A DNA stretch of 64,000 nt from an uncultured cyanobacterium (GTDB lineage Bacteria > Cyanobacteriota > Cyanobacteriia > Cyanobacteriales > Nostocaceae), in assembly GCA_963766435.1 (NCBI GenBank), contig CAVXZH010000005.1:265610-329609 (forward strand). The letters are read 5' to 3'. The translations under genes and the position numbers were made by a program. Below are positions 4,010-54,703 of this stretch, in pieces (the stretch's first letter is position 1; every line of letters begins with the position of its first letter). The notes below the pieces were generated by a model. That model searched no databases. It was given only the letters and a program-made list of their open reading frames with translations, and was not told the DNA's origin.

Positions 4010-5437
4010 TTAATTCATGATGCTAATCAAGTCTTTATTTTCTACCTGCAACCTCAATCTCTCATTCTCAATTCTTAACTTCTCATTTTCTCTCTCAAGT
4101 TGAATCACCATTTCCTGTAAATCTTCGACTTTAGATTTTTTCTTAATAGCTTGCTCAATGGCAACTTTCCGATTTTCCAAACTAAACCATTTTTGATAAA
4201 TAGATGTGTGCATATTCACTGAATGACCCAAGTTATCAGCAGCAGCTTTGATGGGAATTCCCATTAAATGCGCTCTAATTGCCCAAGCATGACGTAAATC
4301 ATAGGGTTGAAAGGGAATATTCACAAATCTAAACCATCTGTCTGTCCCATGTCGTGCGGAATTGAGTTGTCTACTGGTAATTTTATCCTCAATTTTTAGT
4401 TTTAATAATTCAATTGCTTCTGTATCTGTTTTTAACTGAAAAGTCTCTACCCAACGCGGATACAATGGTAAAGCTTCCCTTTCTCCAGTTTTACATTCTT
4501 GATTGACACGCCAAGTATTCATAGTGTTATCTGCTGACAACCACCAATTTAAATCAGGATTGACAAAAATTTCTCTTGGTCTTAATCCATAAGTAGCTAA
4601 CATACCATATACCCAGCGCCATAGTTTCCAGTTATTTCTATCTTCCCTGGTTAATAATTTACTAGGACGATTAATAGCATAATTCTCGAATTTTAAATAT
4701 TCTTGTTCTATTTCTGTATCACTGGGGATATCCCGCTTCCGTTTAGCACTAGATTTAATTTTTAAGTTACTTAATTCTGGAACTTCTATACCAGAGCATT
4801 TACACAATACTCTAATCACTTTAATTAATTCATTTTTTACACTATCCGACGAAGGACAATTTTGTACCGCATCAATAAAACTAGCATTTATCGCTGGTTT
4901 ATCTTTTGGTAAATGGGTTTCAGCAATATAGAAATAACTATTAAAAGTATTTTCACTTTTTAGATTGAATTTTCGAGTTTGAAAATAATTTTTCTCAAAT
5001 TCGGCAATTAAATCGCCTATATTTCTAGATTGCAGTTTATTACGAGTTTTACCTAAATATTTTTCAGTCCATTGAAATTGTTTTCTGGCTATTAACTTTC
5101 CTAACTCATGAGCTTCTTCTTCGGCAGTACTTAAACCATCAAAACTAAATGGTATACCCAAAGAAATATCATATTGCTTTGTGCCTATACCGTTTTTATC
5201 AATATCTCCTGGTTTAATAGGTAGAGTAGTTCTGAGTTGAAGTGAATTCCCAGATTTTCTGATAGAAACAGTTACTCTTGCTGCTTTCAGTCTAGCATTT
5301 ACCGCCTTTAATTCGGTTTCCAGTTTTGCCGTCAGGTGATTTTCTTGATTGGTCACTGCTTGCATTCTACCTAAATATCCCCCATCGTTGATGGCTGTTT
5401 GTTCAAAATCGGCAAATGCTTCCTGTGTCTTGTTCAT
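4010..5437 (-). CDS. XisA-family site-specific recombinase of the nifH-interrupting element
   Basis: 475 aa; motifs [13 protein letters not shown] and [29 protein letters not shown] shared with the two other recombinases (7177, 53053); sits immediately inside the element border next to nifH 3'. Confidence 0.8.
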
Positions 5438-5547
5438 ACCCTATATTCACCCTAATTAAAAAACTGTTCGACCTAGACAATGATTACGATAAACATTGTC
5501 AATGCCAAACATTTAGCGGTTATAATCAGCATATTATTGCTCTTTGC

Positions 5548-6015
5548 CGTGAAGGTAAAGCACAAGAAATCTACATCGTTACCTCTGGTGAAATGATGGC
5601 GATGTACGCTGCTAACAACATTGCTCGTGGTATTTTGAAATATGCTCACACTGGTGGTGTGCGTTTAGGTGGTTTGATCTGTAACAGCCGTAAGGTTGAC
5701 CGGGAAATCGAATTGATTGAAACTTTGGCTGAACGCTTGAACACCCAAATGATTCACTTCGTACCCCGCGACAACATCGTTCAACACGCTGAATTGCGCC
5801 GGATGACCGTTAACGAATACGCTCCTGACAGTAATCAAGGATTGGAGTACCGCGCATTAGCTAAGAAAATCATCAACAACGACAAGCTCACCATCCCCAC
5901 TCCAATTGAGATGGACGAACTAGAAGCATTGTTGATTGAATTCGGTATTCTTGAAAGCGATGAAGAAGCAGAAAAGCTGATTGCTGCTGACGCTGCTAAA
6001 GCTGCTGCTAAGTAA
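5548..6015 (+). CDS. nifH: nifH 3' segment (nitrogenase Fe protein, from ~codon 125 to the stop)
   Basis: [33 protein letters not shown]...[24 protein letters not shown] matches NifH; upstream of cgtgaagg the sequence is non-NifH (element); 468 nt in frame to TAA. Confidence 0.85.
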
Positions 6016-6163
6016 TAAAACTATGAAGGATGAAGTCTGAAAAATTAATATTTTTCACTTCATACTTCCTTCCCTCTATCCCCCAGGGGAACTAGAGTCC
6101 CCAACGCTACAGGGGACATCCCCTTTCCCTATCCCTATTCCGTATGAGCAAGAGAGGCCGGAA

Positions 6164-7100
6164 ATGACTCCTCCAGACAACAAAAACATCATCGAAGAAA
6201 GAAAAGAACTAGTTAAAGAAGTTCTTAAAGCTTATCCTGAAAAAGCTGCTAAAAAGCGGGAAAAGCACCTCAATGTATATGAAGAAGGTAAGGCTGATTG
6301 CGGTGTTAAATCTAACATCAAGTCTCTTCCTGGTGTAATGACCGCTCGTGGTTGTGCTTACGCTGGTTCTAAAGGTGTGGTTTGGGGTCCTATTAAGGAC
6401 ATGATCCACATCAGCCACGGTCCCGTAGGTTGCGGTTACTGGTCTTGGTCAGGTCGTCGTAACTACTACATTGGTACTACTGGTATTGATACCTTTGGTA
6501 CTATGCACTTCACCTCTGACTTCCAAGAACGTGACATCGTTTTTGGTGGTGACAAAAAGCTGTTGAAATTAATTGAAGAATTAGAAATTCTTTTCCCTCT
6601 CAACCGTGGTATTTCCATTCAATCTGAATGTCCCATTGGTCTAATTGGGGATGACATCGAAGCAGTAGCTAGAAAAGCGGCTAAAGAAATTGGTAAGCCA
6701 GTTGTTCCTGTCCGTTGCGAAGGTTTCCGTGGTGTTTCCCAATCTTTAGGACACCACATCGCTAACGACATGGTACGCGACTGGGTATTCACCAGAGCAG
6801 ACCAAGCTAAGAAAGACGGTACAGCTTCCAAGTTTGAAGGTACTCCTTATGACGTAGCCATCATTGGTGACTACAACATCGGTGGAGATGCTTGGGCTAG
6901 CCGTATTCTCTTAGAAGAAATCGGCTTGCGCGTAGTCGCTCAATGGTCTGGAGATGGCACCATCAATGAGATGTTGCAAACTCCTAATGTGAAAATGAAC
7001 CTCATCCACTGTTACCGCTCGATGAACTACATCAGCCGTCACATGGAAGAGGCTTATGGTATACCCTGTCTTGAATATGATTTAATAGGCGATGTTACCA
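6164..7100 (+). CDS. nifD: nifD segment 1 (MoFe protein alpha, residues 1-~312)
   Basis: MTPPDNKN...CGVKSNIKS...[21 protein letters not shown]... canonical NifD; diverges after ...[17 protein letters not shown]. Confidence 0.9.
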
Positions 7101-7176
7101 GGATTTAGTCCACGCCTGACTTTGTTCAGTTTGAGCCTTGTTCTAAATGGACTAAATTTTAAGCCAGATTTAAGCC

Positions 7177-52807: not shown

Positions 52808-53021
52808 TTATGCGATCGCTCTTTGGAAGATGGGATTTGGGATTGTTTAAGATAGGCCATTGAATTTCTTCTCGGACTTCAAAAGGTAGCTGTTCTGGAC
52901 GTTCAAGTGGTTCACCTTCCCAGGAACCTACAACTTCTTCAATAAATTCACGTGTATATCCTAATTCTTCCTGCATTTTAGTTACTCGCTTGTGTTTAAG
53001 GTGGATTGCGCTAAAGCGCAA
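52794..53021 (-). CDS. small hypothetical protein
   Basis: 75-aa ORF overlapping a copy of the dispersed palindrome arm. Confidence 0.2.
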   Translation of the reverse strand: MRFSAIHLKHKRVTKMQEELGYTREFIEEVVGSWEGEPLERPEQLPFEVREEIQWPILNNPKSHLPKSDRIIAHR

Positions 53022-53052
53022 CTACGAACAAATAATTTTGTGTCTTCTCAAT

Positions 53053-54387
53053 TTATCTGATTTTACCATATTCTGTATCCAAAATATGATTCTGTTGATA
53101 AATTATTTCCATTCTCAATTTCTCCATCTCTAACTTCAATCGCTCATTCTCAATTTTCAATGTAGCATTTTCATCCTTAATCACCTCAACCTCATTCCGC
53201 TTGCTCAAAGCCTGATTAATCGCTAGTTTTCGCATATCTAAGGAAAACCAACGTTGATAAGTTTGTGTATGCACCTGTACACTATGCCCTAAATTATCTG
53301 CTGCTGCTTTGATGGGAATTCCTAAAATATGTGCTCTAATTGCCCAAGCATGACGTAAATCATAGGGTTTGAAATCTAATCCAATTTTTCTAAACCACCA
53401 ACTTACTCGTTGGGTTAGTGCGGTTATTTCAGCATGATTAGTATTATCTTTTTTATTAACTGCTGTGATTAACATTTCTACATATTTGGGATTACTTAAA
53501 TCAAATTCTTCAATCCATTGTTTATATAATGGTAAAGCTTGTCTTTCTCCAGTTTTACAATCTTTATGAACTTTCCAGGTTAAATCTACATTTTCTTTAC
53601 TTAACCACCAATCAATATCAGGATTAATGAAAAGTTCTCTTGGTCGTAATCCAAAAACTGCTAACATTCCATAAGTCCAGCGCCAAAGTTGCCAGCTATC
53701 TTTCACTTCTTGGTTTACTTGTTTGCCTCGATTATTTAAATAATCTTCAAATTTGATGATTCCGGCAATTATTTCCCCATCTGTGGGAATTTTCCGAGAA
53801 TTATTCTCAGGCATTTTCGCATATTTAGATAAATCAATCTCAATTTTAAAGGTCTGACAAAATGCAGCAATAGCTCTAGCAGCATTATATTTAGACCATT
53901 CTTTATCAATTTTTTCAATTGAATTAATCAGATTTTCGGCAGTTGCTAATTCTTCGGGATTAGTAAAACGCTTGGTACGAGAAAAGTAATAAAAAAATGT
54001 ATGTTCACTTTTAGTAGTACGCTGATGGGTTTTAAAATATTCTGTGGCAAATTCTGCCAATAACTCTCCCATAGTTTTAATATCTTTTTTAATAACTTCT
54101 TTACTTAAATATTTATCATTCCAGACAAAAGTTTTCCGGGCAATTAACTTTCCCAATTCATAAGCTTCTTCTTCAGCAGTTTTCAATCCGTCTAAGTTAG
54201 CAGGAATATTTAAACTCAGATTATATTGTTTTCTCCCAGTTCCATTGGTATCTTTATCTTCTGGTTTAATTGGTAACGTTGCACGTAGTTGCAGACTTCC
54301 ATTGGATTCTCGAATTGTGACTTTTGTTTTCGCAGATTTCAAACGGAGATTCACTTGTTCTAATTCCGTTGTTAATTTTGTTGTCAT
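53053..54387 (-). CDS. xisA: XisA site-specific recombinase of nifD element 2
   Basis: 444 aa with the same conserved motifs; at the nifK-proximal border of an element bounded by GGATTACTCCG. Confidence 0.85.
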   Translation of the reverse strand: MTTKLTTELEQVNLRLKSAKTKVTIRESNGSLQLRATLPIKPEDKDTNGTGRKQYNLSLNIPANLDGLKTAEEEAYELGKLIARKTFVWNDKYLSKEVIKKDIKTMGELLAEFATEYFKTHQRTTKSEHTFFYYFSRTKRFTNPEELATAENLINSIEKIDKEWSKYNAARAIAAFCQTFKIEIDLSKYAKMPENNSRKIPTDGEIIAGIIKFEDYLNNRGKQVNQEVKDSWQLWRWTYGMLAVFGLRPRELFINPDIDWWLSKENVDLTWKVHKDCKTGERQALPLYKQWIEEFDLSNPKYVEMLITAVNKKDNTNHAEITALTQRVSWWFRKIGLDFKPYDLRHAWAIRAHILGIPIKAAADNLGHSVQVHTQTYQRWFSLDMRKLAINQALSKRNEVEVIKDENATLKIENERLKLEMEKLRMEIIYQQNHILDTEYGKIR

Positions 54388-54553
54388 ACAGTATCTGTGT
54401 AGCTATGTGAATATTTCTCTAATTTCCTGCTCCCTGCTGCCTTCTACCTTACATTTATTCTCAAAATAAATATGTTATTAACAAACAATGTTTAGGGCTG
54501 ACATTGATTATTATAAACATTAATTTATCGAAAATTAGTCAATGATTAATCAG

Positions 54554-54564
54554 GATTACTCCGG
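54554..54564. repeat. GGATTACTCCG direct repeat (right copy)
   Basis: Exact match to 27356-27366. Confidence 0.85.
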
Positions 54565-54703
54565 CCCTTATCACGGTTACGACGGATTTGCTATCTTCGC
54601 TCGTGATATGGATTTAGCTCTTAACAGTCCCACCTGGGGATTAATCGGCGCTCCCTGGAATAAAACTGCTAAGGCTAAAGCTACAGCTAAAGCTAAAGTG
54701 TAG
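54565..54703 (+). CDS. nifD: nifD segment 3 (C-terminal 46 codons)
   Basis: [46 protein letters not shown]; segments 937+442+139 = 1518 nt = 506 codons in frame. Confidence 0.9.

What the first reader, a model, noticed from the sequence alone, without database searches (positions are those of the whole stretch)
4010..54703. nifHDK broken three times: one nifH element plus two independent nifD elements, each with its own XisA-family recombinase
nifH resumes at ~5548 after element sequence; the window starts inside that element. nifD is split into three pieces (6164-7100, 26925-27366, 54565-54703) by a 19.8-kb element at a non-classical site (…[10 protein letters not shown]|KIAASLR…) and a 27.2-kb element at the classical GGATTACTCCG site. 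All three recombinase genes (4010-5437, 7177-8586, 53053-54387) sit just inside a border and read inward. Elements at multiple positions in nif genes are known in heterocystous cyanobacteria, but three excisions per operon with two in nifD is rare.
Basis: partly seen in the sequence, partly recalled or inferred. Interest (0 to 1): 0.7.

Follow-up and report, generated by a model that had tools for sequence, protein, structure and literature searches.

The report
Three known excision elements in nifHD
This cyanobacterial nitrogen-fixation operon is interrupted by three DNA elements, each with its own recombinase. All three are variants already catalogued, and the same trio has been shown to excise in Anabaena cylindrica, so this is an ordinary new example.

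Summary
The three interruptions and their three XisA/XisC-family tyrosine recombinases are real. Each matches a variant catalogued by Hilton et al. 2016:
- nifH-429, repeat CCGTGAAG.
- nifD-894, repeat TAT(A/T)CCCTG.
- The classical nifD-1353/1357 element, repeat GGATTACTCCG.

Each window recombinase is 69-85% identical to the recombinase of its own variant in reference strains, but only 47-51% identical to the other two.

The same trio occurs in Anabaena cylindrica PCC 7122 and Anabaena sp. PCC 7108. Its excision was shown experimentally in A. cylindrica ATCC 29414. In 80 species-representative nifD loci, 9 are interrupted at site 894, and 8 of those also at 1357. "Non-classical" and "rare" therefore do not hold.

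The true 894 repeat is TACCCTG (7062-7068 and 26888-26894; element 19,826 bp). "[11 protein letters not shown]" is element sequence that mimics nifD.

Joining at the true repeats gives a 1,507-nt nifD with a +1 frameshift. nifK has three more frameshifts and nifE two. Five of the six lie at GGNCC motif positions. I read them as probably long-read basecalling errors. Real pseudogenisation is not excluded.

Verdict: new member of a known kind, low interest.

The parts
1..5546 (.). Right-hand part (at least 5.5 kb) of a nifH-429-type interruption element. The left border and the 5' part of nifH lie outside the window.
   Evidence: There is only one CCGTGAAG in the window. No NifH N-terminal ORF lies upstream. 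The 109-nt right end is colinear with the nifH elements of PCC 7122 and PCC 7108.
4010..5437 (-). Recombinase of the nifH element (475 aa), XisA/XisC-family tyrosine recombinase.
   Evidence: It is 85% identical over the full length to Anacy_2116 and Ana7108_2850, whose products carry Pfam XisAC_N and XisAC_2nd. The start codon is 109 nt from the element edge, as in Hilton Table B. The motifs [20 protein letters not shown] and Y-Q-K-W are conserved.
5547..5554 (+). Right copy of the nifH-element direct repeat CCGTGAAG.
   Evidence: It is the same repeat as the experimentally excised element of A. cylindrica.
5547..6015 (+). 3' part of nifH (from ...REGKAQEIY to the stop codon).
   Evidence: ORF translation. 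The junction aligns with L082 and L083.
6164..7068 (+). nifD piece 1 (codons 1-301, ending ...AYGIP and the first two bases of the Trp codon).
7062..7068 (+). Left copy of the nifD-894 direct repeat TACCCTG.
   Evidence: It corresponds to the published repeats TATACCCTG and TATTCCCTG.
7069..26887 (.). nifD-894-type element, 19,826 bp from repeat to repeat. Cargo includes a primase/helicase-like DUF3987 protein (10042-13263, minus strand), a DUF5131 protein (16473-17396), a LamG-like protein (17950-19044, minus strand) and many ORFs with no family match.
   Evidence: The left end is homologous to L082, L083 and L085. The right end matches the junctions in L001, L003 and L008.
7177..8586 (+). 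Recombinase of the nifD-894 element (469 aa).
   Evidence: Identity to the nifD-894 recombinases: 76% C. stagnale PCC 7417, 69% A. cylindrica, 67% PCC 7108. An identical database protein, P0001, carries Pfam XisAC_N and XisAC_2nd.
26888..26894 (+). Right copy of the nifD-894 direct repeat TACCCTG.
26895..27356 (+). nifD piece 2 (WLEYNFFG ... HSWDYS). It contains one extra base at 26917-26920: GGTCGTTACC here against GGNCCNACN in all 80 relatives.
27346..27356 (+). Left copy of the classical nifD-element repeat GGATTACTCCG.
   Evidence: two copies in the window, none in 100 shuffles.
27357..54552 (.). Classical (1353/1357) nifD element, 27,207 bp from repeat to repeat. Cargo: three Uma2 genes, a Fur-family regulator, a peroxiredoxin, a TrxR-like protein, a T2SSE ATPase, CorA, an FGE-sulfatase-domain protein, an AAA gene split by an IS630-family insertion, IS607-like tnpA/tnpB, and an AAA_15/21 ATPase.
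53053..54387 (-). xisA orthologue (444 aa).
   Evidence: It is 82% identical to XisA ('Excisase A') of Nostoc/Anabaena PCC 7120 (P0114) and to that of A. variabilis (P0111). It aligns with conserved catalytic motifs. The start codon is 165 nt from the element edge.
54553..54563 (+). Right copy of GGATTACTCCG.
54564..54703 (+). nifD piece 3 (GPYHGYDG ... to the stop codon).

Best explanation
The window holds the nifH(3')-nifD-nifK-nifE-nifN... cluster of a heterocystous Nostocales cyanobacterium. Three independent, developmentally excised interruption elements break it, and all three are of known types.

Each element encodes its own XisA/XisC-family tyrosine recombinase just inside one border. 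Each is flanked by a short direct repeat that is part of the nif coding sequence:
- CCGTGAAG in nifH.
- TACCCTG in nifD at about nt 894.
- GGATTACTCCG in nifD at about nt 1353.

By analogy with PCC 7120 and A. cylindrica, each recombinase is made late in heterocyst differentiation. It recombines its own pair of repeats and releases the element as a circle. Contiguous nifH and nifD are left behind, so nifHDK can be transcribed only in the terminally differentiated cell.

Shown here: the anatomy, the repeats, the orthology of each recombinase to the matching variant, and colinearity of the rejoined NifD apart from one extra base.

Inferred: the timing and activity of excision.

The extra base in nifD, and the five frameshifts in nifK and nifE, are most likely consensus errors of a long-read assembly at GGNCC motifs.
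For: - Repeats sit exactly where nif homology ends and resumes.
- The repeats, recombinase position, orientation and distance from the edge match Hilton et al. Table B for variants nifH-429, nifD-894 and nifD-1353/1357.
- Recombinase identity is 85%, 69-76% and 82% to the matching variant, against 47-51% between the three paralogues.
- Pfam XisAC_N and XisAC_2nd are recorded for the identical or orthologous proteins. The tyrosine-recombinase motifs are conserved.
- The rejoined NifD, with the extra base removed, is 501 aa. It is 93% identical to an uninterrupted NifD (L019) and colinear with it, with a single one-residue gap.
- Excision of the same three elements was shown by heterocyst genome sequencing, PCR and qPCR in A. 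cylindrica ATCC 29414.
- For the artefact reading of the frameshifts: five of six are at positions where relatives have GGNCC, which is forced at three Gly-Pro codon pairs. Four are single-base losses in short C or G/A runs. An IS630 transposase in the window is likewise split at an A9 run. The source contig is 1.6 Mb.
Against: - As assembled, nifD does not rejoin in frame, and nifK and nifE are also frameshifted. On this sequence alone, excision would not yield a working nitrogenase.
- Twelve GGNCC sites in the window are intact, so any motif-linked error is not universal.
- About 15 kb of other long ORFs show no frameshift.
- No heterocyst DNA or reads are available, so excision in this strain is untested.
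- The left border of the nifH element is outside the window.
Confidence: 0.9

Rival explanations
1. The elements are as described, but the nif operon of this strain is genuinely dead. On this reading nifD, nifK and nifE carry real frameshift mutations, for example after long culture on combined nitrogen. The three elements with intact recombinases would persist as selfish DNA in pseudogenes.
For: - There are six frameshifts in about 4.4 kb of nifDKE, and none in the three recombinases, nifN, nifX, hesA or fdxH.
- No NifK protein from the source genome is in the protein database, although its recombinase is. This is consistent with pseudogene annotation.
- Two of the changes are complex (TGG to TCAG, CCT to CGTT), not simple homopolymer slips.
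Against: - Apart from the indels, the encoded proteins stay highly conserved: NifD 93% and NifK 92% identical to their best relatives. There are no in-frame stop codons.
- Clustering of five of six indels on one short motif (GGNCC) points to a systematic technical cause rather than random decay. A rough estimate of the chance of this for random indels is well below 1e-6.
- Other frameshifts in the window also sit at error-prone contexts, such as the A9 run in the IS630 transposase.
Confidence: 0.2
2. One reading: the 19.8-kb element recombines at the 7-bp repeat GTTACCA (7093-7099 and 26918-26924). This would give an in-frame NifD that reads ...[18 protein letters not shown]...
For: GTTACCA is present on both sides, and joining there happens to keep the frame.
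Against: - The sequence 7069-7105 is homologous to the left ends of the element in three genomes whose repeat is TAT(A/T)CCCTG. One of these was verified experimentally.
- All 80 relatives have PW(L/M/V)E(Y/F)NFFGP(T/S/N/H), and the window encodes exactly this up to the final Gly just right of TACCCTG.
- The product would carry an extra residue and six substitutions in an invariant segment.
- The GTTACCA match arises because the element's left arm mimics nifD and because of the aberrant CGTT in the right copy.
Confidence: 0.03
3. The interruptions are assembly artefacts: foreign contigs mis-joined into nif genes.
For: The assembly shows indel errors. Hilton et al. noted 'odd assemblies' around such elements in some drafts.
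Against: All five visible junctions have the variant-specific repeat and conserved element ends, with the recombinase at the canonical distance and orientation. These match independent finished genomes.
Confidence: 0.01

Closest known systems
Classical nifD element with XisA of Nostoc/Anabaena sp. PCC 7120 and A. variabilis ATCC 29413
   Same: The 11-bp repeat GGATTACTCCG is identical and lies at the same codons (HSWDYS|GPYHGY). xisA sits at the nifK-proximal end and reads inward. The recombinase is 82% identical.
   Different: The element is 27.2 kb, against 11.07 kb listed for A. variabilis. The window's cargo is a Fur/peroxiredoxin/TrxR module, Uma2 genes, a T2SSE ATPase, CorA, and IS630 and IS607 copies. 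It was not compared directly with the PCC 7120 or A. variabilis element. The longest possible XisA ORF is 444 aa, against 472 aa as annotated in PCC 7120.
nifD-894 element variant (A. cylindrica PCC 7122 #5, Anabaena PCC 7108 #2, C. stagnale PCC 7417 #2, Microchaete PCC 7126 #2; Hilton et al. 2016)
   Same: Same insertion point (Pro-Trp codons) and same core repeat. The recombinase is at the start of the element on the nifD strand and is 67-76% identical. The left-end sequence is homologous. The size, 19.8 kb, is almost the same as the 19.811 kb of PCC 7108.
   Different: The shared repeat is 7 bp (TACCCTG) rather than 9 bp. The spacer between the edge and the recombinase is shorter (108 nt against 131-132). 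No window cargo ORF has a detectable homologue in the first 10 kb of the PCC 7108, PCC 7122 and PCC 7417 elements, apart from one weak 34%-identity match in PCC 7417.
nifH-429 element variant (A. cylindrica PCC 7122 #6, Anabaena sp. 90 #3, A. circinalis AWQC310F #3, Anabaena PCC 7108 #3)
   Same: Repeat CCGTGAAG. [quoted passage not shown] The right end is colinear.
   Different: Only the right-hand 5.5 kb is visible. The cargo differs: a Q/T-rich 625-aa ORF and an apolipoprotein-like ORF have no homologue in the fetched loci.
Highly fragmented nif clusters: Rivularia sp. PCC 7116 nifD (four elements) and Calothrix sp. NIES-4101 nifBHDK (13 fragments, excisions plus inversions)
   Same: Multiple independent recombinase-bearing elements within one nif operon.
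   Different: Those cases are more extreme and also involve serine recombinases and inversions. The window has only tyrosine-recombinase excisions between direct repeats.

Membership tests
XisA/XisC-family tyrosine recombinases | Pfam XisAC_N (PF27551) plus XisAC_2nd (PF27132) architecture | tested here: met
   P0001, which is 100% identical to the 7177-8586 product, carries both families. The orthologues of the nifH-element recombinase (85% identical) carry both. XisA of PCC 7120 (P0114, 82% identical to the 53053-54387 product) carries both. My own Pfam copy lacks these models and gave only sub-threshold Phage_integrase hits.
XisA/XisC-family tyrosine recombinases | Conserved tyrosine-recombinase catalytic motifs (Arg; His-x-x-Arg; His; Tyr nucleophile) | tested here: met
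   [20 protein letters not shown] and HTxxYQ(K/R)W are invariant in all three window proteins and in XisA of PCC 7120.
Heterocyst-specific nif interruption element (sensu Hilton et al. 2016) | Interrupts a conserved gene and is bracketed by short direct repeats that belong to the coding sequence | tested here: met
   TACCCTG x2 and GGATTACTCCG x2 lie at the exact breaks in NifD homology. For nifH only the right copy, CCGTGAAG, is in the window.
Heterocyst-specific nif interruption element (sensu Hilton et al. 2016) | Carries its own recombinase gene close to one edge | tested here: met
   The start codons lie 109, 108 and 165 nt from the edges, and all three genes read inward.
Heterocyst-specific nif interruption element (sensu Hilton et al. 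2016) | Precise deletion between the repeats restores an intact ORF | tested here: inconclusive
   The 1353 junction restores ...[14 protein letters not shown]... perfectly. The 894 junction restores ...[12 protein letters not shown], but an extra base 23 nt downstream shifts the frame. With that base removed, the product is 501 aa and colinear with NifD. nifH cannot be rejoined because its 5' part is outside the window.
Heterocyst-specific nif interruption element (sensu Hilton et al. 2016) | Excised during heterocyst differentiation | not testable with these tools
   This needs heterocyst against vegetative DNA of this strain. It has been shown for the orthologous trio in A. cylindrica ATCC 29414.
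nifD-894 variant | Repeat TAT(A/T)CCCTG at nt 894 +/- 1, with the recombinase at the start of the element on the same strand as nifD | tested here: met
   The left copy reads TATACCCTG and the right copy CTACCCTG, so 7 bp are shared. The position is nt 897 here, which is 894 after allowing for a one-codon insertion upstream. The recombinase groups with the 'begin/+' subcluster members.
nifH-429 variant | [quoted passage not shown] | tested here: met
Classical nifD element (1353/1357) | Repeat (GGAT)TACTCCG at HSWDYS|GP, with xisA at the nifK-proximal end on the opposite strand | tested here: met

The most novel reading that the evidence does not exclude
The six frameshifts in nifD, nifK and nifE are real and are targeted to GGNCC (AvaII/AsuI-type) sites. 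This would be a nitrogenase operon inactivated by restriction-site-associated mutagenesis. All three interruption elements and their recombinases would remain intact, so the selfish elements would have outlived the genes they depend on for a harmless insertion site.
Probability: 0.12. Interest if true: 0.4.

Novelty: new member of a known kind. Interest (0 to 1): 0.15.

Why it matters
It adds one more genome to a well-described phenomenon: developmentally excised elements in heterocyst nif genes. The useful points are practical.

1. The element's left arm mimics about 37 bp of nifD. Naive in-frame joining therefore picks the wrong junction.
2. Cargo is not conserved in the loci compared, whereas the recombinase and attachment site are. 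This fits the view of these elements as site-specific selfish DNA.
3. The nifDKE frameshifts cluster on GGNCC. This warns that pseudogene calls in long-read cyanobacterial assemblies may be motif-linked artefacts.

None of this changes the current understanding of these elements.

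Tried and rejected
- **Source genome.** Exact-protein look-ups for two recombinases, NifN and P0001 found no accessible contig. The cluster look-up gave no name. The source organism therefore stays unidentified beyond Nostocales.
- **Close relative to settle the frameshifts.** The best NifK in the protein database is only 92% identical, and the best nifK DNA in the fetched loci is about 85% identical. The native bases at the frameshift sites could only be inferred from more distant relatives.
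- **All GGWCC sites miscalled.** Rejected: seven GGWCC and twelve GGNCC sites are intact.
- **NtcA-type GTA-N8-TAC sites upstream of the three recombinase genes.** None found, only loose TGT-N9-ACA matches. These were not pursued and nothing is claimed from them.
- **Cargo homology.** Comparison of the 894 and nifH elements with the PCC 7122, PCC 7108 and PCC 7417 loci found nothing except the recombinases, one conserved 200-aa ORF and one weak 34%-identity match.
- **PHROGs scan of the 21.5-26.6 kb block of the 894 element.** No phage structural families were found. A prophage origin is supported only by the primase/helicase-like and DUF5131 genes.

Full report
**What is in the window**

ORF listing and direct reading show the following, left to right:
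- The 3' part of nifH, up to its stop codon at 6015.
- nifD in three pieces.
- nifK, nifE, nifN, nifX, two small ORFs (60406-60882, 60977-61174), nifW, hesA, hesB and fdxH.

I named these genes by reading the translations. Only nifD and nifK were checked by search.

Three long ORFs lie just inside element borders and read inward: 4010-5437 (minus strand), 7177-8586 (plus strand) and 53053-54387 (minus strand). All three are intact.

**The three recombinases**

My Pfam copy gave only sub-threshold Phage_integrase hits. The large protein database does better. It holds a protein identical to the 7177-8586 product (P0001), annotated with Pfam XisAC_N and XisAC_2nd, as are all of its homologues.

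Identity of each window recombinase:

| Window recombinase | Identity to the recombinase of the matching variant |
|---|---|
| nifH element (4010-5437) | 85% Anacy_2116, 85% Ana7108_2850 |
| nifD-894 element (7177-8586) | 76% C. stagnale PCC 7417, 69% A. cylindrica, 67% Anabaena PCC 7108 |
| Classical nifD element (53053-54387) | 82% XisA of PCC 7120 and of A. variabilis |

The three window proteins are only 47-51% identical to one another.

An alignment shows the tyrosine-recombinase motifs invariant in all of them: [20 protein letters not shown] and Y-Q-K/R-W.

**The junctions**

Classical element:
- It is flanked by GGATTACTCCG at 27346-27356 and 54553-54563. There are two copies in the window and none in 100 shuffles.
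- The element is 27,207 bp.

nifH element:
- nifH resumes at CCGTGAAG (5547-5554), the only copy in the window.
- The 109 nt between this repeat and the recombinase start codon are colinear with A. cylindrica PCC 7122 and Anabaena PCC 7108.

First nifD element. That is wrong, for three reasons:
- The left-border sequence TCTTGAATATGATTTAAT...GATTTAGTCC is homologous to the left ends of the element in PCC 7122, PCC 7108 and PCC 7417.
- On the right border the window reads CTACCCTGGTTAGAGTATAACTTCTTTGG. This encodes PWLEYNFFG, as in all 80 relatives fetched.
- The true repeat is therefore TACCCTG, at 7062-7068 and 26888-26894, and the element is 19,826 bp.

A 7-mer alone is not statistically remarkable: five copies are present and about five are expected. 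Its placement and its match to the published repeat are what decide the junction.

Only 0.6% of shuffles reach the observed alignment score. Such similarity is expected between the two arms bound by the same recombinase (my inference).

**Comparison with the literature**

Hilton et al. 2016 (PMC4874684) catalogued 101 elements and defined variants by insertion position. The three here correspond to:
- **nifH-429.** Repeat CCGTGAAG. [quoted passage not shown]
- **nifD-894.** Repeat TATACCCTG or TATTCCCTG. Recombinase at the start of the element, same strand.
- **nifD-1353/1357.** The classical element.

Their Table B lists exactly this trio for A. cylindrica PCC 7122 and for Anabaena sp. PCC 7108, whose 894 element is 19.811 kb.

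A 2019 preprint (10.1101/629832) covers A. cylindrica ATCC 29414. It showed by heterocyst genome sequencing, PCR and qPCR that the nifH1, 5'-nifD and 3'-nifD elements are all precisely removed.

More fragmented cases are also published:
- Four elements in nifD of Rivularia PCC 7116.
- Thirteen nifBHDK fragments in Calothrix NIES-4101.

**How common the configuration is**

I fetched 80 species-representative loci with the middle NifD piece. The counts are:
- 9 loci are interrupted at site 894.
- 8 of those 9 are also interrupted at 1357.
- 41 loci in total are interrupted at 1357.
- nifH-429-type recombinases (78-86% identical) lie upstream in at least 9 of these loci.
- Anabaena sp. FACHB-1237 (L008) carries the full trio, with a roughly 2-kb, recombinase-only version of the 894 element.

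"Rare" therefore does not hold.

**In-silico rejoining**

| Join | Length | Result |
|---|---|---|
| At the true repeats | 1,507 nt | One base too many. After ...[12 protein letters not shown] the window reads GGTCGTTACCAAG, where every relative has GGN CCN ACN AAG. |
| True repeats, one base removed | 501 aa | 93% identical to an uninterrupted NifD (L019) and colinear with it, with a single one-residue gap. |
One extra residue at the first junction and three at the second ([14 protein letters not shown]), plus substitutions in an invariant segment. |

**The frameshifts**

nifK is split over three frames and nifE over three frames, which gives five more frameshifts. Comparison with relatives shows:
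- Four are single-base losses: GGTCC to GGTC, GGA(C/T)CGC to GGACGC, GGCCCC to GGCCC, and AAG(A/G)AT to AAGAT.
- Two are complex changes: TGG to TCAG, and CCT to CGTT.

Five of the six lie at positions where relatives have GGNCC. Three of these are Gly-Pro codon pairs, where the motif is obligatory. GGNCC is strongly avoided in the window, with 12 sites against about 116 expected.

Two other observations fit an error-prone assembly:
- An IS630 transposase in the window is split at an A9 run, and an IS607 tnpA is also frameshifted.
- The source contig is 1.6 Mb.

No NifK protein from the source genome is in the protein database, although its recombinase is. This suggests the genes were annotated as pseudogenes.

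I consider motif-linked consensus errors of a long-read assembly the likelier cause, at roughly 0.75. Against this, 12 GGNCC sites are intact, and about 15 kb of other long ORFs carry no frameshift. Genuine pseudogenisation therefore remains possible, at roughly 0.2.

**Cargo**

The 894 element carries:
- A primase/helicase-like DUF3987 protein.
- A DUF5131 protein.
- A LamG-like protein.
- Many ORFs with no family match.

The classical element carries:
- Three Uma2 genes.
- A Fur-family regulator, followed by a peroxiredoxin and a TrxR-like protein.
- A T2SSE ATPase, CorA and an FGE-sulfatase-domain protein.
- An AAA gene split by an IS630-family insertion.
- IS607-like tnpA and tnpB.
- An AAA_15/21 ATPase.

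No window cargo ORF matched the fetched parts of the PCC 7108, PCC 7122 or PCC 7417 elements, apart from one weak 34%-identity hit in PCC 7417. This agrees with Hilton et al. that the recombinase and attachment site are conserved while the cargo is not.

**Mechanism and verdict**

Each recombinase most likely recombines its own pair of direct repeats late in heterocyst differentiation. The element is released as a circle, and nifH and nifD are restored.
- Shown here: the anatomy and the orthology.
- Inferred: activity and timing, from PCC 7120 (established knowledge) and from A. cylindrica.

The finding is real. It is a further instance of three catalogued element variants in a combination that has already been described and tested experimentally.

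Noticed in passing
window 26917-26920; ~55056; ~56162; ~56313; ~57276; ~57328: There are six frameshifts in nifD (1), nifK (3) and nifE (2). Five are at positions where relatives carry GGNCC (AvaII/AsuI-type motif), and three of those are obligatory Gly-Pro codon pairs. Likely basecalling errors at a methylated motif, but real pseudogenes are not excluded.
   Followed up: partly
window 39283-41305: An IS630-family insertion sequence (transposase 39650-40638, minus strand) is inserted into an AAA ATPase gene (39283-39684 and 40715-41305) inside the classical nifD element. Its transposase is split into two ORFs at an A9 run.
   Followed up: partly
window 48211-50012: An IS607-like unit: a serine-recombinase tnpA (MerR HTH plus Resolvase domain) frameshifted near 48635, followed by tnpB (OrfB_IS605 and Cas12f1-like TNB domains).
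   Followed up: partly
window 33459-35750: The classical nifD element carries a Fur-family regulator (minus strand) next to a peroxiredoxin and a thioredoxin-reductase-like gene. Hilton et al. cite FurA as a regulator of xisA, so a Fur paralogue on the element itself may be worth a look.
   Followed up: no
window 3327-3929 (minus strand): A 200-aa ORF lies beside the nifH-element recombinase and has no Pfam match. It is 81-86% identical to ORFs in five other loci. In L008, L014 and L018 it lies beside the nifH-type recombinase. In L007 and L028 it lies downstream of the classical nifD junction.
   Followed up: partly
whole window: Restriction-type motifs are strongly under-represented: GGNCC 12 against 116 expected, GGCC 15 against 124, CYCGRG 1 against 21, GATC 106 against 218. 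CGATCG is over-represented (21 against 4.5).
   Followed up: partly
window 7069-7105 versus 26895-26930: The left end of the 894 element resembles the nifD sequence immediately right of the crossover (0.6% of shuffles reach the score). As a result, read-through from nifD piece 1 gives the NifD-like peptide [11 protein letters not shown]. This is probably the shared recombinase-binding arm.
   Followed up: partly
L008 7737-9137 and L003 8215-9606: Anabaena sp. FACHB-1237 and the Anabaena CRKS33 MAG carry miniature nifD-894 elements (about 2 kb) that hold essentially only the recombinase gene. The window's element is 19.8 kb and that of A. cylindrica is 75 kb.
   Followed up: partly
window 159-3129 (minus strand): Two large low-complexity ORFs lie in the nifH element: a 625-aa Q/T/S-rich ORF with an internal tandem repeat, and a 252-aa ORF with a weak apolipoprotein/prominin-like match. 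Neither has a homologue in any fetched locus.
   Followed up: no
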